DNA of 32,000 nt from Candidatus Methanophagaceae archaeon (GTDB lineage Archaea; Halobacteriota; Syntropharchaeia; Alkanophagales; Methanospirareceae). Of this stretch, positions 9,548 through 29,739 are shown piece after piece. Under the pieces are notes generated by a model. That model was not told where the DNA came from, did not search any database, and was given only the letters and a program-made list of their open reading frames with translations. The stretch lies in the NCBI GenBank assembly GCA_003194425.1, contig PQXB01000001.1, positions 100,444-132,443 of the forward strand. The letters run 5' to 3'. Both the position numbers and the translations under genes were made by a program. The stretch's first letter is position 1; each line of letters opens with the position of its first letter.

Positions 9548-9560
9548 CTAAAGAATCTTT

Positions 9561-13779: not shown

Positions 13780-13805
13780 TTTACTTCTCTCTCTCCCTCC
13801 CCTCT

Positions 13806-13880
13806 TGCCTTCATTCCTCCTGCCTTCATTTCTCCTGCCTTCATTTCTCCTGCCTTCATTTCTCCTGCCTTCATTCCTCC
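13806..13880. repeat. 15 bp x5 tandem repeat filling the hdrC-hdrB spacer
   Basis: tgccttcatt(c/t)ctcc x5. Confidence 0.95.
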
Positions 13881-13895
13881 TTCTTCCCTTCTCCT

Positions 13896-14498: not shown

Positions 14499-14503
14499 TT
14501 TTT

Positions 14504-14584
14504 CTCCTCGCTCTCCTCTCCTTTCTTCTCCTCGCTCTCCTCTCCTTTCTTCTCCTCGCTCTCCTCTCCTTTCTTCTCCTCGCA
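14504..14584. repeat. 24 bp x3.4 tandem repeat filling the spacer upstream of hdrC
   Basis: ctcctcgctctcctctcctttctt x3 plus a partial unit. Confidence 0.95.
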
Positions 14585-14595
14585 CCTCACACCTC

Positions 14596-15732
14596 TCACC
14601 GCAGTTTCTCCTCTAACTCTTCCTCTTCGTAGGCAGTGAACGGAATCGGCTCTTCTACTTCCTTGCCCGGCGTGTAGTTAAAAATCTCCTGCACCTTCGC
14701 GGTAACCACAGGGTAGAACCTCGTCAGCGGAATGTCCTTCGGGCAGGCGTCCTCGCAGGCACCGCAGCCGACGCAGGTCGCACTGACGTGGTAAACCCGC
14801 GTGAGGTGGTACATCAACTGATTTGTCGGCACGCCGACCGCGCCCCGCAGCGCCGCCAAGTTCAGCAAGTCCCCACCGACAGGGTTCCCAAGCGGCTGCT
14901 CAAAGAAGCACTCCTTGCAGTAGCAGACCGGGCACAGGTCTCGGCAGTTCTTGCAGACAATGCAGTCCCGCAGGAACTCCTCCAACTCCTGCACGCTGCT
15001 CGCAGTTGGAAGTGACTCCCGCTTCTTCCTCGCCGCCTCCGCGATTTTCGCCTTCTCGCCCGCCCGCTCGATGTCTTTCTCCTCCAGCGGCAACTCCAAC
15101 GCCGACAGCGCCTCAACGCCCCTTTCGGTCAGTCCTGCGACCACTACTTTCCCGCCGTCTCCATCTCCTCCGTTCGCCCTAACAAGAGCAATGTCCGCTC
15201 CAGCCTCGTCTGCGAGCCGGTTTTCGCAGATTTCACACGCCTCGCGCACTGCTACTCCCTTACCTTTCAGTTCCTCTGCCTTCGCACCACCAGGTCCAGC
15301 CTCCAGCCAGTCCCCGATTTCGTCCGCGTTGGCGGCGTAGTCCTGGTTCGTGAACGCGCCCGAGCAGTCCGCGCTGACCAGTAGCACGCTCTCCTTGTCC
15401 ATTTGCTTCAGTTTCACCAGTTCCACCGCTGCCCGAATCTCGCACGGCTTCGCTACCAGCCCGACCTTCTCGCCGATTGTCCAGCCCTTCAGAATGTTCG
15501 CCGCGTTCACGCTGAACGAGGGTGCGAAGACCGCCGACGCCGAGACGCCTGCTGCTGTCCCTGCTCCTGCCGAGTCAATTTTGCTTGCGTCCCGCACTAA
15601 AATGTAGGAAACATTTTTTCCCCCTTCCCCCGCTCTCCGCGGCAGAACCAGGCAGTCCACGACCTTGTTCTCGAGCAGTCCCTTGAACAGCCCCGCTAAA
15701 TCCTCGCTCTTCAACTCCGCTCCTTTGCTCAT
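14596..15732 (-). CDS. Fe-S (2x[4Fe-4S]) protein, FrhB/FdhB-like or AsrA/HydB-like putative electron-input subunit of the Hdr module
   Basis: C-terminal CIVCKNCRDLCPVCYCKECFF and CVGCGACEDACP. The start overlaps the mvhD stop (ATGA). Family assignment is by motif memory only. Confidence 0.5.
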   Translation of the reverse strand: MSKGAELKSEDLAGLFKGLLENKVVDCLVLPRRAGEGGKNVSYILVRDASKIDSAGAGTAAGVSASAVFAPSFSVNAANILKGWTIGEKVGLVAKPCEIRAAVELVKLKQMDKESVLLVSADCSGAFTNQDYAANADEIGDWLEAGPGGAKAEELKGKGVAVREACEICENRLADEAGADIALVRANGGDGDGGKVVVAGLTERGVEALSALELPLEEKDIERAGEKAKIAEAARKKRESLPTASSVQELEEFLRDCIVCKNCRDLCPVCYCKECFFEQPLGNPVGGDLLNLAALRGAVGVPTNQLMYHLTRVYHVSATCVGCGACEDACPKDIPLTRFYPVVTAKVQEIFNYTPGKEVEEPIPFTAYEEEELEEKLR

Positions 15733-16274: not shown

Positions 16275-17975
16275 TTATTTCACACTATATAAACTTTGCG
16301 ATTTTTTGCTGTGCTCCAATTTCTCTACCCTAACATCGACGTAGGGCAGATTTCCAGACAGGACACGCACTGTCCCGCCTCCGCTGCCCTCCTCCTGCGT
16401 TACGACTGCGTGTCCGCTCCCCTCACTCCTGCTCCCCTCACTCCTGCTCCCCTCACTCCCGCTCCCCCCTCCCTTGACGGTAGCCGAGCTTTGAGCAAGT
16501 TTTACTGGGTTGCTTGAATTGTCGTTGTGAATGCAGACGAAATTGACGACGACGCCCTCGACCGGTCTGCCCGCGGTGTCGTTCACCCACACGGTTATTT
16601 TCCCTGCTTCGTAGCTGGCGCGGAGTGAGACAGGCGGGTTGAAATTTTGGCTTGCAGGGACAGAAATATTCCCTGAAATTTGGCTTAATTTGGCGACCAT
16701 TCCCGTGTCGTCGGTTACTTTGAGGTCGATTAAGACGGCTTCACCAGGTACTGGATTTATTCCTTCGAGTCCTGCCCGCACCTTCTTTCCTGTCTGGTAG
16801 TGCGCGGTTTCGCCGCCACCCACTCTTGAGTCGTTGTAGTAAACCGTCCAGTTGAACTCAGTGACAAAACCGTCGGGGTCCGGGTCGTAAGATTCCGAAG
16901 CGTCCAGCACCAAAAAATCCCGAAACACTACTCCTAAGTCCTCGGTAACTACCTGCACCCGAGCAACCGGCACCGGCGGTGCGAACGCGTCCGCGAAATT
17001 GCTGCCCAGCCCGGTTATCAAAAGCGTCTCGATTGGGTCAGTGGTCTTGAGGTGCACGGGACTGCCGCCAAAGTCAGTGAGCAAGTTAATCCGCAGGGAA
17101 GCGGTAGAACGCGGCGGCATTGTGTAGGGGTGCGCCCGAGTGAAGACCGCTTTGCCCTTGCTCGTGGGTGAAAAGACCGAGTAAGTGCGTGCAAAGTGGT
17201 TTTTGACTGCGACCTCTTTTAGCGTGGTCTTGCGAATGTTTAGGTTTCGTGCTGCGAGCTCGACCTCGCCCCAGTAGGACGGGTTTGAGAATTTGATGTC
17301 GTCGAGGTAAATTGTAGTGTCGTCGCGTTTTAGTGTGAACCGCAGTTCGCTGAACTCCGACTCAGAGCCGAGGGAGAAGGAGGTTGTGTTTTTCTGCCAC
17401 TTGTTTTTGGCTGGAAAATTTATTGGAACTCTCTCCCCGTTCAGCGAAACCTCGACCACCCCGTCCCCTGCGAGACTGCTCTTTACCCTGAAACTCAACT
17501 CAACCTCCTCCCCGCTGGATTGAAAAGGCACGAAAGATTTGTTAATGAATTCGTCGGCGTCGCCCGTAACTTTGAAGGCATATTTTGATTTTTTCCCCTC
17601 CTCTCCCTCTACCTCGCACGCCTCTCCCCCTACCTCGCACGCAACGACCTCCATCGTTTCGGTCGTGTTGCGCCAGCCGGAGTAAGGGTAGTCCCTGCTG
17701 AGCGTCCAGTAGCAGTTTTGAGTTCCGTAATTTTTGAAGACGCTCACGCCCTCGAAGTCGTCAATGCAGGCTGCAGGGTAGAGTGATATTTTGGTAATCT
17801 CAAGCTCTTCGAGTTCAATCGCGGTCGTGTGACTCTCCTTTTCCGCGATGTCTTGCTGAAGACTTGTAACAATGTACGCGACCGAGGTTGCGGCGGTGAC
17901 CGTGATTATTATGAGCAGCATTGCCCCGACAATCACGCTTGTCCCGCTGGTACCCTTAACGAAAGGGGATTTCAT
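16275..17975 (-). CDS. Surface protein with archaeal class III (type IV pilin-like) signal peptide and a PKD-like domain
   Basis: N-terminus MKSPFVKGTSGTSVIVGAMLLIIITVTAATSVAYIV. Internal LDASESYDPDPDGFVTEFNWTVYYND is PKD-like. A C-terminal GSRSE repeat is present. Confidence 0.55.
   Translation of the reverse strand: MKSPFVKGTSGTSVIVGAMLLIIITVTAATSVAYIVTSLQQDIAEKESHTTAIELEELEITKISLYPAACIDDFEGVSVFKNYGTQNCYWTLSRDYPYSGWRNTTETMEVVACEVGGEACEVEGEEGKKSKYAFKVTGDADEFINKSFVPFQSSGEEVELSFRVKSSLAGDGVVEVSLNGERVPINFPAKNKWQKNTTSFSLGSESEFSELRFTLKRDDTTIYLDDIKFSNPSYWGEVELAARNLNIRKTTLKEVAVKNHFARTYSVFSPTSKGKAVFTRAHPYTMPPRSTASLRINLLTDFGGSPVHLKTTDPIETLLITGLGSNFADAFAPPVPVARVQVVTEDLGVVFRDFLVLDASESYDPDPDGFVTEFNWTVYYNDSRVGGGETAHYQTGKKVRAGLEGINPVPGEAVLIDLKVTDDTGMVAKLSQISGNISVPASQNFNPPVSLRASYEAGKITVWVNDTAGRPVEGVVVNFVCIHNDNSSNPVKLAQSSATVKGGGSGSEGSRSEGSRSEGSGHAVVTQEEGSGGGTVRVLSGNLPYVDVRVEKLEHSKKSQSLYSVK
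16416..16473. repeat. 15 bp x3.8 tandem repeat inside the pilin-like gene
   Basis: gctcccctcactcct x3 plus a partial unit. Encodes GSRSEGSRSEGS. Confidence 0.95.
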
Positions 17976-18004: not shown

Positions 18005-18970
18005 TTATAAATCCTCAACCCTCGACAAATCCCTCGCCGCCTTCTGCACCGCCTCTTCCGAATTCCACCGCTGCCGCCAGCCCATTTTCTTCAGCCGCGA
18101 AGCGTCGAGCATCATAACCGGGACATCGCCTTTCCAGCCCCTTTTACCGCCCGTGAACTTGAATTTCGGTCTCGGGAACGCCCGCATTTCCTCGCAGACA
18201 ATCTCTGCAATCCGCTTTACGCTTACCCTGTCGTCCGTCCCGATGTTGAAAATATTCACGCTCTTGCCCGCACCTGCACCCGCAAACATCGCTTCTACGC
18301 AGTCGTCCACATAAATGTACGACTTCGTCTGCTCGCCGTCGCCCAAGATTTCCAACTCCGCAGGGCTACTCCTTCTTCTTAACTTCTTTATAAAGTCGTA
18401 AATTACGCCGTGCGACGACCGCCTGCCGACGACATTCGCAAACCTGTAAATCCAAGCTCGCATTTCAAAAGTGTGGCAGTAAGAAGCGATTAACGCCTCG
18501 CAGGCAAGTTTTGAGGCACCGTAAAGCGAGATTGGAATCGTGGGGTAGTCCTCAGGCGTGGGCAGTTTCTCGGCGTCGCCGTAAACGGTGGAGGTAGAAG
18601 TGAAAACCAACTGCCGCACCCCTTTCGCCCGCATCGCCTCCAGCACATTGTAAGTCGCGAGGACATTCTGCTCCAAGTGCACCCTCGTGTTCTCGACGCC
18701 GACTCGCACCTCTGGGTTCGCAGCGAGGTGCCAAACCTGCTCTACTCCCTCAAAAAAATCTGTTAAGCCCCCGCTCCCTGCACCTTCCTTACCTTGCAAG
18801 AGGTCGATTTTGTGAAACTGGAAGTTTGCGTTGCTCAGGTGCGGGGCTACGAATTCCTCGTCCCCCGCGCTCAAGTCGTCCAAGACCACAACCTCGTGCC
18901 TCTGCTCCACTAACCTGTCAACCAAATGCGAGCCGATAAATCCCGCCCCGCCGGTTACTAAAATTTTCAT
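18005..18970 (-). CDS. NAD-dependent nucleotide-sugar epimerase/dehydratase (SDR family)
   Basis: MKILVTGGAGFIGSHLVDRL and YGASKLACE (YxxxK). Length is 321 aa. Confidence 0.9.
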   Translation of the reverse strand: MKILVTGGAGFIGSHLVDRLVEQRHEVVVLDDLSAGDEEFVAPHLSNANFQFHKIDLLQGKEGAGSGGLTDFFEGVEQVWHLAANPEVRVGVENTRVHLEQNVLATYNVLEAMRAKGVRQLVFTSTSTVYGDAEKLPTPEDYPTIPISLYGASKLACEALIASYCHTFEMRAWIYRFANVVGRRSSHGVIYDFIKKLRRRSSPAELEILGDGEQTKSYIYVDDCVEAMFAGAGAGKSVNIFNIGTDDRVSVKRIAEIVCEEMRAFPRPKFKFTGGKRGWKGDVPVMMLDASRLKKMGWRQRWNSEEAVQKAARDLSRVEDL

Positions 18971-19198
18971 TGCACTTCTATTTTCTTAACTGTCTTTGTT
19001 ATTTCTGCCGCTACTTCTTCCGCTTTGAGCTTTACTTCTCATTGCCTTGTTTCTTTCGCAGGCACGTACCTCCAATCCGCCCCGTCTTCGCTCACTATTT
19101 TGTAGGTCGTTGTGTTGTTCATCAAGTCGCAGGGGTGGTACTCGGTCTTGTCTGTTCTGATTGAGTCCGTTGGCACTGCTGGTTTGGCTCGCCGCTTA

Positions 19199-19284
19199 CT
19201 TAAACCTTTCTTTAGAAAAGAGAGTTTTATCAAAACAAAAAAATAAAAAGAGGGCTCAGTTGTTGCTGAGCCCCTCGAGTTCGG
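19199..19284. repeat. Copy L of ~85-bp double-hairpin unit (AT-rich palindrome + A-run + GGCTCAGTTGTTGCTGAGCC hairpin)
   Basis: Almost identical to 21093..21177, with a few mismatches or indels by eye. Related to 22195..22275. Confidence 0.85.
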
Positions 19285-19345
19285 AAAGTCTACTTCTGCT
19301 CTCGCTCTCTTTCTCCCACCACGGTCGGTCAGCGCTGCGTCTCAT
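19256..19345 (-). pseudogene. C-terminal remnant of the small secreted-protein family seen intact at 22249..22916
   Basis: Minus-strand translation MRRSADRPWWEKESESRSRLSELEGLSNN* matches the end of the 22249..22602 product (DDRPWWEKSVSSELGLGVELELEGLSNN*). Its ATG overlaps the endonuclease stop. Confidence 0.55.
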
Positions 19346-20175
19346 TTTGTTATTATCAGCACTTTCGCAACCGCCGTGTAGGTCTTTCTCCCAAATGTAA
19401 AAACAATCTCGTCTCCCCTCGAGACCGCCGCCTCATCAAAAAAATCATCAATCTTCTGAAACACGAGACTAAAATCCCGCTTTAACTCCCAACTCCTCTC
19501 AGGCTCGCCCCTCTCCAACAGCACAACAAACAGCCTGTTCTCGGCTCCAAACCTCTGAGCGCCTTGATTCTCGTACATCCAAACCGCTAGCTCTCTCGGA
19601 CTCGCCACTGCGTAATCAGAATCATAATCTCGCGGCAAGTAAGTAACCTTAAGATCAAACGGCTGACCGTCAAAGAAAATGTCAACACCCTTAACATTCT
19701 TGAGCGTGGGAATTACCCTCTGATGAGAACTTATGTGCTCCTCAATCAGCACCGTCGTCCAGTGGTTGAACCAACTGCAAACTACATAATTCGTCACCTC
19801 CTCGTACAGTCCTGCCTCAACATTCCTCAACAAGTTATCGTACCGCACGAACCGCCGCACATATTCTGCCTGTATCTTTCGGTCTAACTGCCCCTGAACC
19901 ACGCCCCACGAGAATGTTTTTACTTTCAATAATTCCCTTCTCAAGTCCTCGTCAGAAATAACAGCCCTTCGCTCCTTAATCCTTTCCGCGTATTTTTGCT
20001 TGATAAACTCGTCAATTAGTTCCTCATTCGGCCGCTCCTCTAATATTTTTTTAATAATCTTTGTCGCAGTGCCTCTCTTCGAAATTCCTAAATTTAGAGC
20101 GAGTATTCTTAATTCGGGCAACCGAATACAACCGAGCTTCAGATTCAAGACCTCTTTTTGACTCAAAAATGGCAT
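19342..20175 (-). CDS. Putative type II restriction endonuclease (PD-(D/E)xK candidate) with N-terminal SAP-like motif
   Basis: Lies 22 bp downstream of the DNA methyltransferase on the same strand. LPELRILALNLGISKRGTATKIIKKILE is SAP-like. GVDIFFDGQPFDLKV fits D...DxK. No family is recognised beyond this. Confidence 0.5.
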   Translation of the reverse strand: MPFLSQKEVLNLKLGCIRLPELRILALNLGISKRGTATKIIKKILEERPNEELIDEFIKQKYAERIKERRAVISDEDLRRELLKVKTFSWGVVQGQLDRKIQAEYVRRFVRYDNLLRNVEAGLYEEVTNYVVCSWFNHWTTVLIEEHISSHQRVIPTLKNVKGVDIFFDGQPFDLKVTYLPRDYDSDYAVASPRELAVWMYENQGAQRFGAENRLFVVLLERGEPERSWELKRDFSLVFQKIDDFFDEAAVSRGDEIVFTFGRKTYTAVAKVLIITK

Positions 20176-20197
20176 AAAAAAACCCTTCTATTTTTCC

Positions 20198-21082
20198 TTA
20201 TTTTTTCTTAAAAATCATAATGTATTCGTGTTTAAAGATGTAAAAACCACCGACCAACGCTCTGTACCGCCACAACTCCTTCTGATTTCTCTTACCTCTC
20301 GTCTCCTCAAAGTTCTTCACAACAATGCTCTTCAGGAGGTAGCCCCGCTTCAAGACCTCCTGCATACAGAAAAAACCAAGAGGCACCCACTCGCTGTTGG
20401 AGTATTTGTCGCCGATGACGAGAGCGAAATACCGCTCTCTCTCCAAGTACGGCGTTACATTCTCCACCACCTCCCCAAACATTTTTAGAAAATCTTGCGT
20501 GGTCGTCGCATTTGAGAGGTCTCGGTCGTCGTCAGAGAATTTAATAATGTCGTGGTAAGGAGGGTGCAGAATTATGAGTTGGACTTGATTTAGGGAGTGC
20601 TTCTCTAAAATGGGTTTTAGGTCTGCTGTCCTGCTGTCGGCTGTAATTATTTCTGTGGTTACAGTGTGCCCAGTGTGCCCGCCGGTGTGGCTGTTAGGTT
20701 CTTTCGCTACCGACGCCTCTGCTTTCTTAACGACCTCTGGATTTAACTCGATTCCGATTCCGTTCCGCCCGAGCCGACGGCACTCAATTAAAGTCGTCCC
20801 GCTACCCAGAAAAGCGTCTAAAACCCAGTCTCCTTTTTTGGTGAATCGGAGCATCATTTGGCGAGGGATTTGAGGGACGAAGTTGCCCCAGTAGCCCGCA
20901 CCCGCAGAATGAGAACCAGAACGGTCCCTCTTGTCAAAGACCCAGAGGCTGTCTGTTATGACTTCGTCGTAGTCCTTCCACCTGAGGAGGTTTAGGTCGT
21001 TGATTTTGGTGGTCTTGACCTCTTCCTTTCGGGTTTGATTTTCCTTAAAAAGAGTCGTCTGCTTGCAGTAGTTGTTTCTCAT
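20198..21082 (-). CDS. N6-adenine or N4-cytosine DNA methyltransferase (PF01555-like sequence blocks in permuted order)
   Basis: The AdoMet motif VLDAFLGSGTTLIECRRLGRNGIGIE precedes the catalytic motif LIILHPPYHDI. Confidence 0.8.
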   Translation of the reverse strand: MRNNYCKQTTLFKENQTRKEEVKTTKINDLNLLRWKDYDEVITDSLWVFDKRDRSGSHSAGAGYWGNFVPQIPRQMMLRFTKKGDWVLDAFLGSGTTLIECRRLGRNGIGIELNPEVVKKAEASVAKEPNSHTGGHTGHTVTTEIITADSRTADLKPILEKHSLNQVQLIILHPPYHDIIKFSDDDRDLSNATTTQDFLKMFGEVVENVTPYLERERYFALVIGDKYSNSEWVPLGFFCMQEVLKRGYLLKSIVVKNFEETRGKRNQKELWRYRALVGGFYIFKHEYIMIFKKK

Positions 21083-21092
21083 TAAAACTTTC

Positions 21093-21177
21093 TTAAAACC
21101 TTTCTTTGAAAAGAAAGTTTTATCAAAACAAAAAAATAAAAAGAAGGCTCAGTTGTTGCTGAGCCCCTCGAGTTCGG
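21093..21177. repeat. Copy M of ~85-bp double-hairpin unit
   Basis: cttaaaacctttctttgaaaagaaagttttatcaaaacaaaaaaataaaaagaaggctcagttgttgctgagcccctcgagttcgg. Homology to the 22.2-23.0 kb region resumes through 21340. Confidence 0.85.
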
Positions 21178-21263
21178 GCACCGCTGCTGCGGTAGCGACC
21201 GCTACGCCACTCAAAAGCACGACCAAAAAGACCTGCCCTACTCCTCTCTTCTGTTTTCGCCAT
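21149..21263 (-). pseudogene. Internally deleted, frame-disrupted copy of the small secreted-protein gene
   Basis: The ATG and first codons (MAKTE) and the upstream 75 bp match 22917..22993. The signal-peptide segment (..VAVATAAAVPEL) joins directly to ..EGLSNN* but is one frame off from the ATG. Confidence 0.55.
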
Positions 21264-21336
21264 TTTTTTCTCCTGCGTTTGTGCTTCTTTTTATTCTTTA
21301 AGAGGGTTAGTAGGTTAGTAGTTAAGCAGGAGAAAA
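21264..21336. promoter_or_regulatory. Duplicate of the divergent promoter/5' region found at 22917..22990
   Basis: About 75 bp, near identical (about 2 mismatches by eye), including gggttagtaggttagtagttaagcaggagaaaaATGA. Identity stops right after the ATGA that includes the start codon. Confidence 0.6.
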
Positions 21337-21504
21337 ATGAAAACAGAGAAAATCTTCGTGGAACTCTCAGAAGACTCCGCGGAAAGAGTAGGGATTAAAG
21401 TTAAAGTAGGGAAAGTGGAGAGCAAAGATTTAGACCGAGTTAGGAAAATTTTATCCAAAGGAACGCCTCTCTCCAAAATTGAAAGGGAGCAGAGGAGAGA
21501 GTAG
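21337..21504 (+). CDS. Small hypothetical ORF (55 aa) placed behind the duplicated idsA promoter/RBS/ATG
   Basis: Own translation: MKTEKIFVELSEDSAERVGIKVKVGKVESKDLDRVRKILSKGTPLSKIEREQRRE*. No family recognised. Confidence 0.3.
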   Translation: MKTEKIFVELSEDSAERVGIKVKVGKVESKDLDRVRKILSKGTPLSKIEREQRRE

Positions 21505-21537
21505 AAAATTCATTTTGATAATATTATTGGTGAGAAA

Positions 21538-21786
21538 ATGGAAGTGGAAGCAAGAATGGATGCAAAAGGCAGGATTGTAATCCCGCAACTTGTTAGAGAG
21601 AAATTAGGAATTAACGAAGGAACGCTCCTCTCAATTGAGGAAAGAGAAGACAGGGTCATTTTAAAACCAAAGAGGGAAAAGGAGAGGAAGAAGAGTAGAA
21701 TAGAGGATTTTTTTGGTCTAAAAGTGGAGAGGACAGGAGAACCAGAATGGGCGACGGCAAAAGAGATAAAGAGTATTTGGGAGTAG
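21538..21786 (+). CDS. vapB: AbrB/SpoVT-fold antitoxin
   Basis: MDAKGRIVIPQLVREKLGINEGTLLSIEEREDRVILKP is the swapped-hairpin AbrB/MazE motif. It overlaps the PIN gene downstream. Confidence 0.8.
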   Translation: MEVEARMDAKGRIVIPQLVREKLGINEGTLLSIEEREDRVILKPKREKERKKSRIEDFFGLKVERTGEPEWATAKEIKSIWE

Positions 21787-22226
21787 ACACAAATGTGTTG
21801 GTGGCTTTCTTGGATAAAGAACATCCAGACAATCCGAAGACAAAAATATTAGCAGCGCATCAATATCTCGCAGTAAATCCAACTATTATCCACGAAGCCT
21901 TTCACACATTGGTTTACAAGCAAAAATGGAAGCGAGAAGATGCAAAAAATATACTGACCGATTACACGGATTTGGATACAATATTATTCTTGAATCAAAC
22001 GAAGGAAATCACAAAATTAGGATTAGAAGTAGGAGTAAAATATAAAATAGGAGGTAGGGACGCTTTGATATTGGCTAACTTCCTTTTTAATTCAGTGGGG
22101 AGGATGATAACATTTGATAAGGAGCTATTAGAGGTTAAGGAGCTCCTGATAAAAGGAAAGAGGTTAGAGATATTTCTACCATCTTTTATCAAAGAAACCT
22201 TTCTTTACAAAAGAAAGCTTTACTAA
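21747..22226 (+). CDS. vapC: PIN-domain ribonuclease toxin
   Basis: LGVDTNVLVAFL (first Asp), IIHEAFH (Glu), GGRDALILANF and ITFDKEL (Asp residues). The start may instead be the TTG at 21777. The last ~12 codons are encoded by a palindromic element. Confidence 0.8.
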   Translation: MGDGKRDKEYLGVDTNVLVAFLDKEHPDNPKTKILAAHQYLAVNPTIIHEAFHTLVYKQKWKREDAKNILTDYTDLDTILFLNQTKEITKLGLEVGVKYKIGGRDALILANFLFNSVGRMITFDKELLEVKELLIKGKRLEIFLPSFIKETFLYKRKLY

Positions 22227-22275
22227 AGAAAAAAAAATAAAAAAGGACTCAGTTGTTGCTGAGCCCCTCAAGTTC
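22195..22275. repeat. Copy R (more diverged) of the double-hairpin unit
   Basis: aaagaaacctttctttacaaaagaaagctttactaaagaaaaaaaaataaaaaaggactcagttgttgctgagcccctcaagttc. Confidence 0.75.
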
Positions 22276-22602
22276 TAGTTCCACTCCAAGTCCAAGTTCG
22301 CTGGAAACACTCTTCTCCCACCACGGTCGGTCGTCGATGAAAAATGTCGCGGTGTCGGTGCCGAGAACCGTGCCTGGCGTTGTCGTTAGGTCGGTCAGGG
22401 TTGCGACGAAGGTGTAGTTGCCGTCGGCGACGAAGTAACTGACTGGGATTTCGAACGGGACGGTCGCAGACCACTGGAACTCGGCTGGCAGCAGGAACGG
22501 CGGGGACTGGTAAATCCGGTCGGTCTCGCCTGCTGGCTCCTCGAGCTCAAGCAGGAACTTCGCTGCCACTGGCATCGTGGCTGTTGCTCTCTCTGAAATC
22601 AA
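22249..22602 (-). CDS. Hypothetical protein, distal ORF of a two-ORF (or frameshifted) secreted-protein locus; conserved C-terminus ELEGLSNN
   Basis: The 117-aa ORF has a TTG start overlapping the upstream stop (GTTTGATT). The stop codon sits in the loop/stem of a conserved hairpin followed by a T-run. Confidence 0.5.
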   Translation of the reverse strand: MISERATATMPVAAKFLLELEEPAGETDRIYQSPPFLLPAEFQWSATVPFEIPVSYFVADGNYTFVATLTDLTTTPGTVLGTDTATFFIDDRPWWEKSVSSELGLGVELELEGLSNN

Positions 22603-22916
22603 ACCTGTCTTTGTTTCGAGGTGTCCACTGCAATTCGTTTCTTCAGCAGTGCGATGCTTTCTCTGACGCCGCTAATTTCGACGCCGATGATGTCGCCTTC
22701 GCCGTCGGTCAGCACCCAACTGTCGCCGGACTTGTCGAAGGTAATTTCGTCGGGCGAGAACACGTCGAAGTTCTGCGGCGGTGCGAGTTCGGGCACCGCT
22801 GCTGCGGTAGCGGTAGCGACCGCTACGGCTGTCGCAAGAAAGACCGCGAACCCCAGCGCTACTCCGCTTCTCCCTCTCTCTCTGCTTCCCTCTCTACTTT
22901 CTTTTGTTTTCGCCAT
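22599..22916 (-). CDS. Hypothetical secreted/membrane-anchored protein, proximal ORF
   Basis: The ATG at 22916 gives MAKTKESREGSRERGRSGVALGFAVFLATAVAVATATAAAVPELAPPQNF... (basic N-region + hydrophobic helix). The 231-aa track ORF upstream of this is a spurious extension across idsA. Confidence 0.55.
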   Translation of the reverse strand: MAKTKESREGSRERGRSGVALGFAVFLATAVAVATATAAAVPELAPPQNFDVFSPDEITFDKSGDSWVLTDGEGDIIGVEISGVRESIALLKKRIAVDTSKQRQV

Positions 22917-22990
22917 TTTTTTGCTCCTGCGTTTGTGCTTCTTTTTATTCTTTAAGTGGGTTAGTAGGTTAGTAGTTAAGCAGGAGAAAA
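22917..22990. promoter_or_regulatory. Divergent intergenic promoter region (idsA rightward, secreted-protein gene leftward)
   Basis: An AT-rich ctttttattctttaag segment (TATA-like on either strand) and an aggag RBS before the idsA ATG. Duplicated at 21264..21336. Confidence 0.5.
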
Positions 22991-24040
22991 ATGAGCCAAA
23001 ACCACGACCTCGGCGACTTCGGCGTCGAGACCTACACGAGCCTCTTCGAAGACGCCTACAAGAAGAACCTGGCGGGCAGGAAGCCGGACACGCTCTACGA
23101 GCCGATTCTTGACCTGCTGGGCAGAGGCGGGAAGAGGTTGCGACCTGCTTTGTGCCTGCTGGCGTGCGAGTTGGTGGGGGGCGAGACCGAGAGGGGGTTG
23201 CCGACTGCGATTTGCATCGAGTTCTTCCACAACTTCTCGCTCGTTCACGACGACATCGAGGACGGCAGCGAGTTGCGGCGCGGCGAGCCGGCACTGCACC
23301 TTAAGTACGGGCTTCCTGTCGCGTTGAACGCAGGCGACGGGCTTTACGCGTTGTGCTACGAGGCGTTGAAGCCGAACAAGGAGTTGCTGGGCGTGGAGCG
23401 TGCGTGGCGGATTTTTGAGGCGGTTGCAGGGCTTTGCGTTGTGCTTGCTGAGGGGCAGGCTGCGGACCTCGAGTTCAAGCAGAAAATGGAAAAGGGCGAG
23501 GTAGAGGTGAGCGAGGCGGAGGTGTTGGAGGTCTTGAGGAAGAAGACTGCGAGGTTGTTTGCGGTCTCGGCAGAGTGCGGTGCTGTTGCTGGCGGAGCGT
23601 CCTACGCGACTGCAGCGGAGTTGGGCAGTGCCTGGGACGACATCGGAATCGCATTCCAAATTAGAGACGACATCCTCAATCTCGTCGGTGAAGAGGCGAA
23701 ATACGGGAAACGGATCGCAGAGGACATTTCCGAAGGAAAGCCCTCCCTACTCCTCGTTAACTGCCTAAAGCAGTGCGAGGCTCGCGAAAGGGCGAAGATT
23801 TACGCCTGCTTTCAGAATTACGACAAAACCAAAATAAAGGAGGTCGTTGCTCTGTTTAGGAAGTACGGGTCAATCGACTACTCAGAGGCGGTGGCGGGGC
23901 GGTACTTGCAGAGTGGAATAAATAAGATAAGAAAAATGAATATAAAAATAAAAAATAAAGACAAAAAAGGAGTAAAGGAAAAAGGAGTAAAGGAGAAAAT
24001 GGTAGCGTTGGCAGAATATTTCGTGAGGAGAGAGAAGTGA
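22991..24040 (+). CDS. idsA: Polyprenyl (geranylgeranyl) diphosphate synthase
   Basis: First Asp-rich motif FHNFSLVHDDIEDGSELRRG and second FQIRDDILN. An AT-rich Lys-rich repeat insert (KGVKEKGVKEK) lies near the C-terminus. Confidence 0.9.
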   Translation: MSQNHDLGDFGVETYTSLFEDAYKKNLAGRKPDTLYEPILDLLGRGGKRLRPALCLLACELVGGETERGLPTAICIEFFHNFSLVHDDIEDGSELRRGEPALHLKYGLPVALNAGDGLYALCYEALKPNKELLGVERAWRIFEAVAGLCVVLAEGQAADLEFKQKMEKGEVEVSEAEVLEVLRKKTARLFAVSAECGAVAGGASYATAAELGSAWDDIGIAFQIRDDILNLVGEEAKYGKRIAEDISEGKPSLLLVNCLKQCEARERAKIYACFQNYDKTKIKEVVALFRKYGSIDYSEAVAGRYLQSGINKIRKMNIKIKNKDKKGVKEKGVKEKMVALAEYFVRREK

Positions 24041-24046
24041 GGTAAA

Positions 24047-24202
24047 ATGGAGCGGAACGAGGAGAAGAGGTTCGGAAGAGGAGCAAACGCTTGCAGGCGG
24101 TGCGGCAGGAGACGAGGGCTGGTTCGCAGGTACGAGATTTACCTCTGCAGGCAGTGCTTTAGAGAGATTGCACGCGAGATAGGATTTAGGAAGTTTAATT
24201 AA
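24047..24202 (+). CDS. rps14: 30S ribosomal protein S14 (uS14, zinc-ribbon type)
   Basis: Own translation (below the ORF-track size cutoff): [51 protein letters not shown]. Confidence 0.9.
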
Positions 24203-24233
24203 ACCTTTCTTTAAAAAAAATCTAAAACAAAAA
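24201..24233. repeat. Degenerate family-B element between rps14 and rps8
   Basis: aaacctttctttaaaaaaaatctaaaacaaaaaagg shares the aaacctttcttt..aaaacaaaaaa left part with 19201 and 21097. Confidence 0.55.
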
Positions 24234-24641: not shown

Positions 24642-24715
24642 GCCTCGGTAGCTCAGCCTGGTTGAGCGATTGATTTGTAATCAATAGGTCGAGGGTTCAA
24701 ATCCCTCCCGGGGCT
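24642..24715 (+). tRNA. tRNA-Thr (anticodon UGU), no encoded CCA
   Basis: Manual cloverleaf. Acceptor GCCTCGG/CCGGGGC (one G-U pair). D arm GCTC-AGCCTGGTT-GAGC. Anticodon arm ATTGA-TTTGTAA-TCAAT. T arm GAGGG-TTCAAAT-CCCTC. Discriminator T. Confidence 0.93.
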
Positions 24716-24726
24716 CTTTTGGTAAT

Positions 24727-24766
24727 TTGAGTTTTGGTCAGGAGAGTTGAGTTTGGGTCAGGAGAG
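24727..24766. repeat. 20-bp direct tandem repeat x2 immediately 3' of tRNA-Thr
   Basis: ttgagttttggtcaggagag / ttgagtttgggtcaggagag (1 mismatch). Confidence 0.9.
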
Positions 24767-24776
24767 GGAGGAAAAA

Positions 24777-25624
24777 ATGGCTAACGAAAAGTCTGAGAAA
24801 ATAACAAGTTACTTAAACAAAGTGTTTTTAGGAGATGTCCTGGAACTTCTGAAAGAGTTGCCAGACAAGTCTGTTGAAATGGTTTACGGCGACCCCGACT
24901 ACAACGTCGGCGTCAAATACGGCGACAAGTCTTACACGAAAACTTTTGACGAGTACACGTTGAGTGGTACGTTGAGTTGGCGAGGGAGTCGCTGCGGGTT
25001 TTGAAGGACACGGGGAACTTGTTTTTGATAAACTACCCCAAGCAGAACGCTTACTTGAGGGTGAGATTTTTGGACGCTGCGTGCTACGAGGTTGCTGACT
25101 ACGCTTGGGTGTACAACACGAATGTGGGACACAGCCCGAAGCGTTTCACTACCGCCCACCGAAGCGTCCTGCACTGCAGAAAGACGAGGAACAACAACTT
25201 CTACAAAGAGAACGTGGCAGTCCCCTACAAGAACCCGACGGACAAGCGGATTTTAAAAAACTTGGCGAACGGGTCAAAAGGTCGTGCACCCTACGACTGG
25301 TTCTACTTCAACTTGGTCAAGAATGTAAGCAGGGAGAAAACCTTTCACGCCTGCCAGATTCCGCAGAAGCTTTCGGAGATGTTGGTAAAGTCTTGCACGC
25401 AGCCTGGCGATGTTGTTCTGATTCTCTTCGGCGGCAGCGGGTCGGAAATAGAAATCTGCAAAGCACTCAAGAGGCATTTTATCTCGGCGGAGATTGACGA
25501 GAAGTACTACGAAATGATTCTCGAGCGGTTGAGGAAGGGGGGAATTGAAGAAAAATACAGGCTGAGACAAAAAAGAGAAGCCAAGAACATTCAAACCCAA
25601 CCCACTCTTTTTGAGAGCGTTTAG
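24777..25624 (+). pseudogene. Beta-class (motif IV before motif I) N4/N6 DNA methyltransferase, interrupted by a frameshift near 24950-24980
   Basis: Frame 1 gives MANEKSEK...VEMVYGDPDYNVG...TFDEY and stops at 25004. Frame 2 is open from 24950 and gives ..VEWYVELARESLRVLKDTGNLFLINY...FHACQIPQKL...VLILFGGSGSEIE. No adjacent endonuclease. Confidence 0.75.
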
Positions 25625-25627
25625 GTT

Positions 25628-26689
25628 TTACCTGACCTCCTGACCTCCTGACCTCCTGACTTCCTGACCTCCTGTCCTCCTGACCTTTGCACCACTCTCT
25701 GCGATTCTGCTCGTTCTCACTTCTCCGAACTCCTTCAGTGCCTCACTCTCGCCGACGAGAAAGACCGCGTCCCCGAGCATTGCGGCACTGGCGACTTTTC
25801 CCTCCGCAGCGACCGCCTCGATCGCGTCACTGCACCGCTCGCTTACCACGCCGCAACGCAACGAGAACCTTCTTGAGACGAGCATAAAATTCTCTAAACT
25901 CGGCTGCCTTACCCGAGCCAGCTCTTTCATCGCTGCCCTGCCCGCCTCGTTTATTCTCCGCCTCAGATTCGCAGAACCGTCCTCCAACTCCTCCAACAAG
26001 ACAGACCTCGTGGATTTCCTTCCGAAGATGACGTAGCTCACTTTCTCCCGGCTGTGTGGTATTTTTTCAATTCTTCCTCCTCCTACAACGCCAGGCTCCT
26101 TTCTCAGCACCACTCCCCCGCCGCCGTACGCCTCTGCAACCACATCGCCCAAGCCTGTGCTGTTCTCTACTTCCGCGAGGTGAGCGACAAAAACCAGCTC
26201 GTTCAGCGTCCTGCCGAGCGAGAAAAGGTCGTTCAACGCCAGAGCAGTGCTGAGCGCACCCGCGCCGCTCGCACCGAACCCGCAGCCGACCGGCACTTCA
26301 AAATCCGTCGCCACGCTAACGGGCTTGTCTCCTACTAAACGCTCGACTACGGATTTGGTGGTCTCTGCCTCCGCCACCGCAACGCCGTTTATTCTTATTT
26401 CTCTTATTTTTCTTCCCGCTCGATTTTTAGTGGAAGAGCTGAGAGCAGCTTCGGTCAGGGTCGCACTGCTCAGGGTCGCACTGCTCAGGGTCGCACTGCT
26501 CAGGGTCGCACTGCTCAGGGTTGCACAAGTCTCACAGCCGGCTTCTAACAGAATTCCACCACCCACCGAGCCTTTCTGGAGCGGATTTTTGTCGTCGTCC
26601 CGAATCTCGAAGAAGCCGGTTAGGTGCGACGGCGAGTAGGCTCTGGCACTTGCACTTGCACTTGCTCTTCTCCTTCTCGGGTTCTGCAT
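25628..26689 (-). CDS. GHMP-family kinase, probably pantoate kinase (archaeal CoA pathway, COG1829)
   Basis: YSPSHLTGFFEI near the N-terminus and the GHMP motif VPVGCGFGASGAGALSTALA. It carries three repeat tracts: ASASAS, ATLSS x5 and a C-terminal tail from an 8-bp repeat. Confidence 0.6.
   Translation of the reverse strand: MQNPRRRRASASASARAYSPSHLTGFFEIRDDDKNPLQKGSVGGGILLEAGCETCATLSSATLSSATLSSATLSSATLTEAALSSSTKNRAGRKIREIRINGVAVAEAETTKSVVERLVGDKPVSVATDFEVPVGCGFGASGAGALSTALALNDLFSLGRTLNELVFVAHLAEVENSTGLGDVVAEAYGGGGVVLRKEPGVVGGGRIEKIPHSREKVSYVIFGRKSTRSVLLEELEDGSANLRRRINEAGRAAMKELARVRQPSLENFMLVSRRFSLRCGVVSERCSDAIEAVAAEGKVASAAMLGDAVFLVGESEALKEFGEVRTSRIAESGAKVRRTGGQEVRRSGGQEVR
25631..25686. repeat. 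8 bp x7 tandem repeat between convergent genes
   Basis: cctgacct x7 (two variant units). Read as the kinase C-terminal tail RRTGGQEVRRSGGQEVRRSGGQEVR*. Confidence 0.95.
26455..26526. repeat. 15 bp x4.8 tandem repeat inside the kinase gene
   Basis: tcagggtcgcactgc x4 plus a partial unit. Encodes ATLSS x5. Confidence 0.95.
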
Positions 26690-28629: not shown

Positions 28630-29739
28630 TCAAAAGAGAAAGTGTGCCAGCAACTCTTCCAAGTGAATGATTGGATTCAAGGAATTGCAGAGTTTGAAAT
28701 CCGCTTCGGCTTCGTGCAGCACGAGTTTGGCGAACCACCGTGCCTCTTCTTCTCCTCGCTCTTCTTCTCCTCGCTCTTCTTCCCCTCGCTCTTCTTCCCC
28801 TCGCTCTTCTTCTCCTTGCCCTTCCCTCGCCAACCGCCTTCGCAACGCCTCGTGCACCTCTGCCAGCACCTCTTTCGCCCCGACCCGCTCGTCTTTTATC
28901 AGAGCCTCCAAGCCCTCCCGCACTTTTTTACGCCTCCCCCTAAACGCCGAATCTAACAACTCCTCTGCCTCCTTTCTCTGAAGAAACGCATTCTGCACCA
29001 CTTCTTTTATTCTGCCCTCGCCGATCGTTTTTGCCTCCGCTGCTGCTGCAGCGGCTGCAGCCGCTTCCAGAATATTTATGCCCGCACCTGCGTCGCCTCT
29101 CGCGAACTGCTTCAGCGTCTTTAAAGCCCCTACTGTAAGTTTTAGCCCCTCTGCTTCGGCGATTTCCGCGAGCAGTGCGTCCAACGCACCGGTCTTGTCC
29201 AAAGCCGTAAAGTGAAGGTTCAAGCACCGCGACCTCACTGCTGGTACGACGCTAGCAGGTTTGGAGGTGGCGAAAATGAACCTGCAGGTTTTGTTGCTCC
29301 GTTCCATCACCCGCCGCAGAGCCTGCTGCAGATTTAGAGGCAGAAGGTCGGCGCTGCTGAAGAAGAGCAATTTGAAACTCGCATTTGCACTTACAGGCGA
29401 CAGCACGGCGTACTCCCGCACCACCGCCTTAAAAATGTCAATCGCAGATTTCTGCTCGTCGTAAAAGAACCTGAACCTCTTCTCCTCTTTCAGCCATTTC
29501 TTCCGCTGCTCAACGAAGTCCGAGCATTCAATGTGTAGCAGGTTTAGGAGGCTCGCGTCGTCGCCGTAAAGCCCCCTCGCCACTGCGTAAACCAGCGAAG
29601 TCTTACCGCTCCCTTTTGGACCCCAAAGCAAGAGGTTCGGGAGGGTCTTTTCCTTGACAAACCCTTTTAACTGCTTCACTACCTCTGCCTGCCCCGCTAT
29701 CTCGTCCAACTGTCTCGGTCGGTATTTTTCAACCCACAT
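28630..29739 (-). CDS. rfcS: Replication factor C small-subunit-like AAA+ clamp-loader protein (divergent)
   Basis: WVEKYRPRQLDEIAGQ, Walker A GPKGSGKT, and the SRC motif VRSRCLNLHF. The Walker B position reads FFSSAD instead of DEAD. An EERGE x4-5 repeat is inserted near the C-terminus. Confidence 0.8.
   Translation of the reverse strand: MWVEKYRPRQLDEIAGQAEVVKQLKGFVKEKTLPNLLLWGPKGSGKTSLVYAVARGLYGDDASLLNLLHIECSDFVEQRKKWLKEEKRFRFFYDEQKSAIDIFKAVVREYAVLSPVSANASFKLLFFSSADLLPLNLQQALRRVMERSNKTCRFIFATSKPASVVPAVRSRCLNLHFTALDKTGALDALLAEIAEAEGLKLTVGALKTLKQFARGDAGAGINILEAAAAAAAAAEAKTIGEGRIKEVVQNAFLQRKEAEELLDSAFRGRRKKVREGLEALIKDERVGAKEVLAEVHEALRRRLAREGQGEEERGEEERGEEERGEEERGEEEARWFAKLVLHEAEADFKLCNSLNPIIHLEELLAHFLF
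28745..28815. repeat. 15 bp x4.7 tandem repeat inside the RFC gene
   Basis: tcgctcttcttc(t/c)cc units. Encodes EERGE repeats. Confidence 0.95.

What the first reader, a model, noticed from the sequence alone, without database searches (positions are those of the whole stretch)
19199..22993. Cassette-like islet: an R-M pair and a VapBC module are each bracketed by direct copies of the same double-hairpin unit plus decaying copies of one small gene and its promoter
Reading in the minus-strand gene direction, from high to low coordinates:
- Promoter 22917-22990, then the intact two-ORF secreted-protein locus 22916-22249, then unit R 22275-22195.
- vapC-vapB and a 55-aa ORF, in the opposite orientation.
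- Promoter copy 21336-21264, then an internally deleted, frame-broken gene copy 21263-21149, then unit M 21177-21093.
- Methyltransferase and endonuclease.
- A 29-codon C-terminal gene remnant 19345-19256, then unit L 19284-19199.

Units L and M are almost identical over about 85 bp. The promoter copies differ at about 2 of 75 positions, and identity ends right after the ATGA containing the start codon.

The deleted copy joins ..AAAVPEL to EGLSNN*. A GAACT(C/T)G microhomology is present at both sites in the intact gene.

Both inserted segments look AT-richer than their flanks by eye.

The pattern is what sequential single-crossover (Campbell-type) integration of circular DNA carrying this homologous segment would leave. 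It is also what a site-specific system using the hairpin unit as its attachment site would leave. Either way the locus acts as a capture site for defence or addiction genes.
Basis: partly seen in the sequence, partly recalled or inferred. Interest (0 to 1): 0.75.

Follow-up and report, generated by a model that had tools for sequence, protein, structure and literature searches.

The report
Repeat-flanked defence islet in ANME-1
In a methane-oxidising archaeon (ANME-1), a restriction-modification pair and a toxin-antitoxin pair sit between three decaying copies of one surface-protein gene's promoter and terminator ends. This pattern is already known from bacteria, and here it varies between strains through ordinary homologous recombination.

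Summary
The repeats are real. Units L, M and R lie at 19195-19284, 21088-21177 and 22188-22277 (L-M 94.5%, L-R and M-R about 80%). The promoter copies at 21263-21340 and 22917-22994 match at 76/78 positions. At least nine other assemblies of the same ANME-1 (Methanophagales) population show the same arrangement.

The repeats are parts of one gene, not attachment sites. That gene encodes a lineage-specific, hypervariable 391-aa secreted protein, intact in other strains. Each unit is its 3' end, a terminator-like hairpin with a T-run, and an AT palindrome common in this genome's intergenic regions. The "intact two-ORF locus" is itself a pseudogene with a 494-nt deletion, so all three copies are dead here.

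The cassettes are a Type II methyltransferase with a probable PD-(D/E)XK nuclease, and a compositionally foreign vapBC.

There is no recombinase in the window. The unit occurs nowhere else in 241 million metagenome records. The one observed presence/absence variant (L026, lacking the 1654-bp vapBC segment) has its crossover in the promoter copy, not the hairpin.

[quoted passage not shown] This is a new archaeal member of a known kind and of moderate interest.

The parts
18005..18970 (-). Left flank: NAD-dependent sugar epimerase (conserved resident gene)
   Evidence: Pfam Epimerase 1e-50. It occupies the same position in L032 and L049.
19195..19284 (-). Unit L: the last codons of the spX gene (..ELEGLSNN*), a terminator-like hairpin GGGGCTCAGCAACAACTGAGCCC with a T-run, and an AT palindrome
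   Evidence: Repeat family D1. Terminator-like site on the minus strand at 19274-19251. 94.5% identical to unit M.
19256..19345 (-). L remnant: the last ~29 codons of an spX copy (..DRPWWEK..LSELEGLSNN*). Homology to copy R starts at about 19337.
   Evidence: ORF list. Alignments. The C-terminus resembles that of the distant homolog P0009/L047, KLSELEKLG.
19342..20175 (-). Probable Type II restriction endonuclease (277 aa, full length)
   Evidence: It lies directly downstream of the MTase. It has 438 relatives, with full-length matches such as P0131 at 62%. E145, D165, D174 and K176 are conserved in beta strands. No family or PDB match was found.
20198..21082 (-). Type II N6/N4 DNA methyltransferase. 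It contains a variable in-frame 9-nt (GHT)n repeat near 20660-20680.
   Evidence: Pfam PF01555 5.7e-24. PADLOC MTase_II 5.6e-129. Repeat-number variation between strains.
21088..21177 (-). Unit M: same make-up as unit L. It ends 5 nt upstream of the MTase start codon.
   Evidence: plus the sequence.
21149..21263 (-). M remnant: the 5' ~115 nt of an spX copy joined to its last 7 codons by a deletion at the microhomology CCGAACTCG. It is frame-broken.
   Evidence: The deletion is absent in strain L037, whose M copy continues into the gene body.
21263..21340 (.). P': a copy of the 74-nt divergent promoter and RBS region, ending at the ATG of the 55-aa ORF
   Evidence: 76/78 identical to P. R-type and M-type variants are distributed patchily across strains, which indicates gene conversion.
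21337..21537 (+). 200-nt leader containing a 55-aa ORF of unknown origin (not part of the conserved vapBC module)
   Evidence: No family match. No homolog lies upstream of vapB in L054 or L056.
21538..21786 (+). vapB-type antitoxin (AbrB/MazE fold)
   Evidence: Pfam MazE_antitoxin 3.1e-10. TIGR01439 AbrB 4.5e-12.
21747..22226 (+). vapC PIN-domain toxin. Its last ~11 codons read into unit R.
   Evidence: Pfam PIN 2.1e-09. Relatives at 68-80% identity are 146-149 aa long. GC3 is 0.38.
22188..22277 (-). Unit R: the terminator end of gene copy R (about 80% identical to units L and M)
22249..22916 (-). Copy R of spX. Here it is a pseudogene split into 105-aa and 117-aa ORFs by a ~494-nt deletion (22571/22576) and a small frameshifting deletion near 22610. 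In other strains it is an intact 391-392-aa secreted protein.
   Evidence: The gene is found only in ANME-1. A low-confidence model (pLDDT 60) shows a lectin/ConA-like beta-sandwich plus an Ig-like domain.
22917..22994 (.). P: the resident divergent promoter and RBS region between spX and idsA
22991..24040 (+). Right flank: idsA (polyprenyl synthase). idsA-S14-S8 synteny is conserved across ANME-1.
   Evidence: Pfam 1.5e-63. Synteny in L002-L017.

Best explanation
This is a strain-variable defence and addiction islet in an ANME-1 (Methanophagales) chromosome. It lies between an epimerase gene and idsA.

Origin of the repeats. The resident gene at this site, called spX here, encodes a lineage-specific, fast-evolving 391-aa secreted protein that may be lectin-like. 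It is transcribed divergently from idsA from a 74-nt shared promoter (P). It ends in a hairpin with a T-run, followed by an AT palindrome of a type common between genes in this genome.

How the cassettes arrived. Two foreign modules were inserted with long duplications of spX sequence: a Type II methyltransferase with a probable nuclease, and a vapBC pair with a 200-nt leader. About 150 nt (gene 3' end plus terminator unit) was duplicated around the R-M pair. Essentially the whole spX segment, from unit to promoter, was duplicated around vapBC.

The most likely route is a single homologous crossover (Campbell type) with circular or foreign DNA that already carried spX-derived sequence. The outcome matches what bacterial genomics calls 'insertion with long target duplication'.

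Consequences. Each promoterless cassette sits within 0-5 nt of a duplicated resident promoter element, P' for vapBC and the unit M palindrome for the R-M pair. The resident genes keep their own copies.

Later history. The repeats have since behaved as ordinary homologous DNA. The promoter copies exchange patches by gene conversion. A crossover between P and P' removes the 1654-bp vapBC segment (variant L026). The redundant spX copies decay by microhomology-mediated deletions. In the window strain all three copies are dead.

What is shown and what is inferred. Shown: the anatomy, the origin of the repeats, the strain polymorphisms, the absence of a recombinase and the absence of other unit copies. 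Inferred: the original insertion mechanism, promoter use, and nuclease activity.
For: - Repeats and their identities.
- The repeats are parts of one gene. Intact 391-392-aa alleles in L033, L034 and L035 align across copy R.
- Terminator-like hairpins on the gene strand.
- The AT palindrome is found in other intergenic regions.
- The M copy was once long, as L037 shows.
- L-M 94.5% against R about 80%, and very uneven R-M divergence (promoter 97%, signal-peptide region about 70%, gene body about 97%). This fits recombination among diverged alleles.
- Mosaic allele P0003.
- vapBC is a mobile two-gene module found in other contexts in other lineages (L054, L056-59). It has foreign composition here.
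- Cassette borders lie at the start and stop codons.
- Deletion variant L026, with its crossover in the promoter.
- Patchy sharing of P and P' variants between strains.
- No recombinase.
- The unit is found only at this locus.
- Known precedent in bacteria, and ANME-1 hotspots enriched in R-M and TA genes: PMC2853133 and PMC13385816.
Against: - No allele lacking the R-M pair was found, and no sister genome with a single spX next to idsA. The ancestral empty site was therefore never seen.
- The ~60% identical spX homologs lie at a different locus.
- The Campbell model needs a donor circle that already holds spX sequence next to the cassette. It therefore explains spread, not first origin.
- The left ends of the two duplications coincide within about 7 nt, at the AT palindrome. 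Plain homologous integration does not predict this. It hints at a preferred break or junction site.
- L026 is a single contig that ends inside the unit. It has not been confirmed at read level.
- No transcription data support the promoter roles.
Confidence: 0.6

Rival explanations
1. In-situ replicative error (template switching of the MMBIR type, or 'insertion with long target duplication' in the strict non-homologous sense). A replication or repair end left the chromosome at the idsA ATG (or at the unit border) and copied a foreign cassette. It then re-entered upstream and re-copied spX. The two flanking copies were therefore identical at birth and were later made mosaic by allelic recombination.
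For: - Cassette borders are extremely tight: ATGA at P'/orf55, 5 nt before the MTase ATG, at the REase stop, and at the last vapC codons.
- Short shared motifs lie at the junctions.
- No donor circle has to be assumed.
- The same pattern is known in bacteria without mobility genes (PMC2853133).
Against: - Copies R and M differ by about 20-30% in the unit and signal-peptide region but only about 3% elsewhere. This needs extra recombination steps.
- No source locus with matching junction microhomology was found.
- vapBC relatives share homology only inside the genes.
Confidence: 0.2
2. An old tandem array of three spX paralogs, each with its own promoter and terminator. The R-M pair and vapBC were later inserted independently, or substituted resident sequence, and the extra paralogs decayed.
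For: - The M copy was once long (L037).
- Copies are diverged in parts.
- The locus also accepts insertions without any flanking duplication. In group-2 strains a 1268-nt EVE-like segment replaces the adjoining ends of the REase and MTase genes.
Against: - Both cassettes sit exactly where repeat homology ends, with no leftover of the original inter-copy junction.
- No tandem spX arrays are seen in any relative. Homologs in L042-L048 are single copies.
- The L copy has no promoter and no 5' part in any strain seen.
Confidence: 0.15
3. Site-specific cassette capture. The double-hairpin unit is an attachment site (att or attC-like) used by a recombinase encoded elsewhere in the genome.
For: - All three units share a perfectly conserved 22-nt hairpin core (pattern).
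- The left borders of the unit copies coincide within about 7 nt.
Against: - No integrase, transposase or IntI domain in 32 kb.
- The unit is found only at this locus in 241 million metagenome records, including the metagenomes that hold this population.
- The viral collection gave only a chance hit.
- Homology extends far beyond the hairpin into the coding sequence and promoter.
- The observed crossover (L026) lies in the promoter, not the unit.
- The hairpin is a plain terminator-like stem with a T-run.
- No Rfam match.
- The cassettes point in opposite directions.
Confidence: 0.05

Closest known systems
R-M 'insertion with long target duplication' (Nobusato et al. 2000, from my own knowledge; Furuta, Abe and Kobayashi 2010, PMC2853133, read)
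   Same: - A small R-M unit with no mobility genes, flanked by direct repeats longer than 30 bp that are copies of resident sequence unique in the genome.
- The repeat overlaps the 3' end of a resident gene, as in their H. influenzae cases.
- The insert has deviant GC.
- The repeats can later mediate amplification or loss.
   Different: - This case is in an archaeon. Furuta et al. state that no archaeal case survived their screen.
- Two successive cassettes are involved, one of which is a toxin-antitoxin pair rather than an R-M system.
- One duplication spans a whole gene with its promoter.
- No empty site for the R-M pair was found.
Campbell-type integration by homologous recombination (for example Hfr formation through shared IS copies, or pop-in/pop-out of suicide vectors); general knowledge
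   Same: - The insert is bracketed by direct copies of the shared homologous segment.
- The reverse crossover removes the insert together with one copy, as in L026.
   Different: - No donor replicon is known.
- The implied circles (about 1.65 kb and about 1.9 kb) carry no replication gene.
Highly variable genomic hotspots of ANME-1 (Zhou et al. 2026, PMC13385816)
   Same: - The same clade.
- Strain-level insertions and deletions enriched in R-M and type II toxin-antitoxin genes.
   Different: [quoted passage not shown] The words 'direct repeat', 'homologous recombination' and 'VapC' do not occur in its main text.
- The present locus adds a mechanistic signature: long direct repeats, gene conversion and a repeat-delimited deletion.
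Minimal mobile elements of Neisseria (Saunders and Snyder; general knowledge)
   Same: - Conserved flanking genes with different small cassettes between them in different strains. The cassettes are often R-M genes.
- Exchange is by homologous recombination.
   Different: Minimal mobile elements do not involve duplication of the flank. Natural transformation is not known for ANME-1.
Tandem accretion of integrase-less elements at repeated att sites (CIMEs; tycheposon islands of Prochlorococcus; general knowledge)
   Same: Arrays of cargo segments separated by repeated partial copies of a resident gene's 3' end, with decaying copies.
   Different: Those repeats are att sites made by tyrosine or serine recombinases. 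Here there is no recombinase, the duplications have unequal extents, and the crossover lies outside the unit.

Membership tests
R-M insertion with long target duplication (criteria of Furuta et al. 2010) | The inserted segment contains both an M and an R gene homolog | tested here: inconclusive
   M is clear. R is probable only: conserved D..D-x-K in beta strands and 438 relatives, but no named family or fold match.
R-M insertion with long target duplication (criteria of Furuta et al. 2010) | Insert shorter than 20 kb, with flanking direct repeats longer than 30 bp | tested here: met
   The insert spans 19342-21087, about 1.75 kb. The repeats are 90 nt at 94.5% identity, extending to about 150 nt with the coding remnant.
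R-M insertion with long target duplication (criteria of Furuta et al. 2010) | No linked mobility genes, and the repeat is not a multi-copy element | tested here: met
   No recombinase domains in the window. The unit is found only at this locus.
R-M insertion with long target duplication (criteria of Furuta et al. 2010) | A related genome has the repeat once and lacks the insert (empty site) | tested here: not met
   No R-M-free allele was found among the contigs recovered. Search capacity was limited. For the vapBC segment, a one-copy allele does exist (L026).
Site-specific integrative element (att sites plus integrase) | A tyrosine or serine recombinase in or next to the element | tested here: not met
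   Pfam scans of the window ORFs and precomputed Pfam hits for the neighbouring genes.
Site-specific integrative element (att sites plus integrase) | Recombination confined to a short common core in the att repeats | tested here: not met
   The crossover in L026 lies in the promoter and start-codon region, about 100 nt or more from the unit. The duplicated segments have different lengths.
Integron-like cassette array | IntI integrase, attI, and attC sites with the characteristic imperfect palindrome; cassettes in one orientation | tested here: not met
   No IntI. The unit is a 7-11-bp stem with a T-run. vapBC is oriented opposite to the R-M pair.
Dispersed repeat element (MITE or REP type) | Many copies spread over the genome | tested here: not met
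   The 22-mer core occurs only at this locus. Only the AT palindrome sub-motif is widespread.
Type II toxin-antitoxin system VapBC | A PIN-domain toxin preceded by an overlapping small DNA-binding antitoxin gene | tested here: met
   PIN 2.1e-09 and MazE/AbrB 3.1e-10. The genes overlap by 40 nt. Activity was not tested.
Type II restriction-modification system | A separate MTase and REase in one operon; the MTase has N6/N4 motifs; the REase has a nuclease fold | tested here: inconclusive
   The MTase criterion is met. The genes are 22 nt apart on the same strand. The REase fold could not be matched.

The most novel reading that the evidence does not exclude
The promoter and terminator ends of spX may act as portable homology arms of an integrase-free cassette platform. 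Small circles made of a cassette plus an spX segment would loop out by homologous recombination. L026 would be the reciprocal product of such an event. The circles would pass between ANME-1 cells and re-integrate at spX, always landing behind a duplicated resident promoter. This would be a recombination-only functional analogue of an integron. The AT palindrome at the unit border would be the preferred junction site.
Probability: 0.1. Interest if true: 0.65.

Novelty: new member of a known kind. Interest (0 to 1): 0.38.

Why it matters
ANME-1 archaea are uncultured and control methane flux from marine sediments. How their genomes acquire and lose defence genes is known only statistically, as hotspots of structural variants (PMC13385816).

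This locus gives a concrete, base-level example of gain and loss:
- An R-M pair and a vapBC module inserted with long duplications of a resident gene's ends.
- Active gene conversion between the copies.
- A repeat-delimited deletion allele.
- A second strain group in which the R-M genes were knocked out by an EVE-like nuclease insertion.

It extends 'insertion with long target duplication' to an archaeon and to a toxin-antitoxin cassette. Until now that pattern had been documented only in bacteria and only for R-M systems.

It is not a new type of mobile element.

Tried and rejected
- **GTDB synteny.** idsA-S14-S8 is conserved in ANME-1 MAGs. These are only about 70% identical, and the sequence upstream of idsA is unrelated. 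No informative empty site was found.
- **Unit and promoter searches in IMG/VR.** The unit gave one chance hit (L029) and the promoter gave none.
- **REase and VapC relatives on viral contigs.** None found.
- **REase against plasmids, PDB sequences, Pfam, NCBIfam and PADLOC.** No match. A high-confidence AF2 model (pLDDT 93) gave no significant PDB fold match.
- **Exact look-up of the window REase.** Not on record.
- **Rfam on 18-25 kb.** Only tRNA-Thr was found.
- **geneB alone as a protein query.** It looked like an orphan. The full 391-aa allele then found ANME-1 homologs at about 60% identity. These are single-copy at a different locus, with a different C-terminus and no unit.
- **vapBC next to a polyprenyl synthase in L056-59.** This looked like conserved synteny. 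However, that synthase is a 30% identical paralog and the intervening gene is unrelated.
- **Rejected readings.** An att or attC site, a MITE, and an assembly artefact.
- **L026 as the ancestral state.** This is less parsimonious than a secondary deletion. L026 carries the same M-copy deletion junction as the vapBC-containing strains, whereas L037 has vapBC with an undeleted M copy.

Full report
**Observation**

The region contains three direct copies of a ~90-nt unit: L at 19195-19284, M at 21088-21177 and R at 22188-22277. It also contains two copies of a 78-nt promoter segment, at 21263-21340 and 22917-22994. With gaps allowed, L and M are 94.5% identical, L-R 81% and M-R 80%. The promoter copies match at 76 of 78 positions. 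A 32-mer from the unit is expected zero times in shuffled sequence.

- An N6/N4 methyltransferase (Pfam 5.7e-24; PADLOC MTase_II 5.6e-129).
- A 277-aa partner gene.
- A 55-aa ORF.
- An AbrB/MazE-type antitoxin.
- A PIN-domain toxin.

The M copy joins ..AAAVPEL to EGLSNN*. The L copy is a 29-codon 3' remnant. Both inserts are AT-richer than their flanks. GC3 is 0.38-0.46 for the vapBC segment and 0.53-0.60 for the R-M genes, against 0.62-0.74 for the flanking genes.

**Source organism and reality of the arrangement**

The idsA protein has its best relatives, at 64-75% identity, in Methanophagales (ANME-1) MAGs. They share the idsA-S14-S8 gene order.

A scan of 241 million metagenome records with the 22-nt hairpin core returned only three contigs. 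All three are this same locus at about 98% identity. Looking up the exact VapC protein and its 98% variant returned a dozen more contigs of the same population from JGI, ENA, NCBI and Logan assemblies. L027, L028/L050, L032, L033, L034, L035, L036, L049 and L051 are colinear with the window across the repeats. The structure is therefore not an assembly artefact.

**What the repeats are**

In strains L033, L034 and L035, the gene next to idsA is a single 391-392-aa ORF. It has a charged N-terminus and a hydrophobic signal or anchor segment. I call it spX.

Relative to these alleles, the window's 'gene A plus gene B' has a ~494-nt internal deletion at 22571/22576 and a small frameshifting deletion near 22610. 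All three copies are dead in this strain.

spX homologs exist only in ANME-1. The ~60% identical ones are single-copy at another locus, between an aminotransferase and a GATase gene. They have a different C-terminus and no unit. Allele P0003 is mosaic, with a diverged central part. A low-confidence model (pLDDT 60) suggests a lectin/ConA-like beta-sandwich plus an Ig-like domain. This is a hint only.

Each unit is therefore made of three parts:
- The last codons of spX.
- A stem-loop followed by a T-run. The terminator scan flags this on the gene strand in all three units.
- An AT-rich palindrome.

That palindrome is not specific to the unit. Close variants occur in other intergenic regions of the window, near 1034, 1082, 1334, 2102, 3853, 9521, 9555 and 24191. 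It is probably a generic promoter-associated or terminator-associated motif.

The 78-nt repeat is the complete divergent promoter and RBS region between spX and idsA.

**The cassettes**

*The R-M pair.* The methyltransferase is certain. The 277-aa protein has 438 relatives, and full-length ones show that the window copy is complete. An alignment shows invariant D165, D174, K176 and nearly invariant E145 in a beta-sheet core, as in PD-(D/E)XK nucleases. No named family, PDB sequence or PDB fold matched. It remains a probable, unproven restriction enzyme.

*The vapBC module.* VapC relatives at 68-80% identity in other Methanophagales and Syntrophoarchaeum are 146-149 aa long. The window protein is 159 aa because it reads about 11 codons into unit R. 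Nucleotide homology to those loci covers only 21545-22174, that is vapB and vapC. The module sits in unrelated contexts elsewhere: between cfbD-like and cfbE genes in L054, and next to an aminotransferase in L056-59. vapBC is therefore a mobile two-gene module. The 200-nt leader with the 55-aa ORF is not part of it.

*Cassette borders.* The borders are very tight. P' ends at the ATG of the 55-aa ORF. Unit M ends 5 nt before the MTase ATG. spX homology resumes within about 5-10 nt of the REase stop codon. Unit R starts at the last codons of vapC.

**Strain variation**

Probing all the contigs gives four states:
- **Group 1:** window, L027, L028/L050 and L049, with L051 matching where its contig covers the locus. 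The R-M pair is intact and copy R carries the 494-nt deletion.
- **Group 2:** L032 and L034, with L033, L035 and L036 matching where their contigs cover the locus. Copy R is intact. Window positions 19925-20270 (the REase N-terminus and the MTase C-terminus) are replaced by 1268 nt. That segment encodes a 343-aa protein and a 75-aa protein. The 343-aa protein has a weak EVE match and a C-terminal PADLOC PDC-S02/NucS-like nuclease match. No flanking repeats accompany this insertion.
- **L037:** the M copy is not deleted at the AAAVPEL|EGLSNN junction. It continues into a gene body about 97% identical to R alleles. The M copy was therefore once long.
- **L026:** this contig is 98.6% identical to the window over 8 kb on the idsA side. 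It runs idsA, then an R-type promoter, then the M-type remnant including the M deletion junction, then the unit. It thus lacks exactly the 1654-bp segment that holds copy R, unit R, vapBC and P'. The switch from R-type to M-type markers falls in a ~30-nt interval around the spX start codon.

L026 shares the M deletion with vapBC-carrying strains, while L037 carries vapBC with an undeleted M copy. L026 is therefore most simply read as a secondary loss by recombination between P and P'.

R-type and M-type variants are distributed patchily in P and P' across strains. The window has the most similar pair, with 4 differing alignment columns against 8-27 in the other strains compared. This indicates gene conversion between the copies.

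**Mechanism**

A site-specific system using the hairpin is not supported, for these reasons:
- No recombinase domain occurs in the 32-kb window.
- The unit exists only at this locus.
- The duplicated segments have different extents.
- The one observed crossover lies in the promoter.
- The hairpin is a plain terminator.
- Rfam finds nothing.

A pre-existing tandem array of spX paralogs is unlikely. Both cassettes sit exactly where repeat homology ends, and no relative shows tandem copies.

The pattern is a cassette with no mobility gene, bracketed by long direct copies of unique resident sequence that overlaps a gene's 3' end. This is what Kobayashi's group described in bacteria as R-M 'insertion with long target duplication'. 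Their screen retained no archaeal case (PMC2853133).

Two routes could produce this pattern.
- **Campbell-type single crossover** with DNA that already carried spX sequence. I prefer this route. It explains the very uneven divergence between copies, and it explains why L and M form one allele type while R forms another.
- **Replicative template switching.**

Campbell integration explains spread rather than first origin. The left ends of the two duplications also coincide within about 7 nt at the AT palindrome, which neither route explains. A single integration of a ~3.9-kb circle carrying R-M, an spX copy and vapBC would also reproduce the 'L similar to M, R different' pattern. This is speculation.

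One functional consequence is inferred and not shown. Each promoterless cassette lies directly behind a duplicated resident promoter element, while idsA and the epimerase operon keep their own.

**Comparison with what is known, and verdict**

ANME-1 strain-level structural variants are already reported to be enriched in R-M and type II TA genes (PMC13385816). The main text of that paper does not contain the terms 'direct repeat' or 'homologous recombination'.

The present locus is a well-resolved archaeal example of a known bacterial pattern, extended to a toxin-antitoxin cassette. It shows direct evidence of ongoing homologous exchange between the repeats.

It is real and tidy, and of moderate interest. 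It is not a new kind of element.

Noticed in passing
window 24747-25624 (next to tRNA-Thr at 24642-24716): A second N6/N4 DNA methyltransferase, with no visible nuclease partner, lies just after S8 and tRNA-Thr. It is frameshifted in the window by a 2-nt insertion (AC at 24955-24956). It is an intact 281-aa gene in L032, L033 and L049.
   Followed up: partly
L032 3220-4488 and L034 815-2083 (replacing window 19925-20270): In a second strain group, a 1268-nt segment replaces the REase N-terminus and the MTase C-terminus. It encodes a 343-aa protein and a 75-aa protein. The 343-aa protein has a weak EVE-domain match and a C-terminal PADLOC PDC-S02/NucS-like nuclease match. A possible modification-dependent nuclease may thus have knocked out the Type II system. 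No flanking repeats are present.
   Followed up: partly
window about 20655-20680 (inside the MTase gene): An in-frame 9-nt repeat, CAGTGTGCC, encodes (GHT)n. It varies from 2 copies in the window to 5 in L032 and 6 in L028.
   Followed up: partly
window 1034-1116, 1334-1368, 2102-2136, 3853-3893, 9521-9589, 24191-24220: An AT-rich palindromic motif recurs in many intergenic regions. Its forms are AAAC(C/T)TTTCTTTAGAAAAGAAAG(G/T)TTT and AAACTTTTTCTAAAAGTTTG. It is probably a generic promoter-associated or terminator-associated element of this genome, and it forms the 'second hairpin' of the units.
   Followed up: partly
window 22917-22994 (and its copy at 21263-21340): The divergent promoter region has inverted ends: CATTTTTTT(C/G)CTCCTGC ... 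GCAGGAGAAAAATG. Both outward-facing genes therefore share the same RBS and start context (pair I5).
   Followed up: no
L028 about 4364-4401 and the R promoter of L028, L049 and L051: One strain group has a ~79-nt tandem duplication in the 5' end of spX copy R. It also has a 9-nt deletion plus several substitutions in promoter P, while P' is unchanged.
   Followed up: partly
L047 1-330: A more distant spX homolog (P0009, 69% identical) is 5'-truncated. It abuts an ORF whose C-terminus looks like that of a type II antitoxin (..KLPEHATWDDLMYELYVKKKLAVALKAAEE). This may be another association of this gene family with addiction modules.
   Followed up: no
window 222-344, 3186-3371, 5325-5471, 13787-13905, 14488-14611, 16414-16475, 26438-26526, 28727-28832: Many coding regions carry short in-frame tandem repeats (9-24-nt periods, rich in CT or GA) that encode low-complexity acidic or Gly/Ser tracts.
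   Followed up: no
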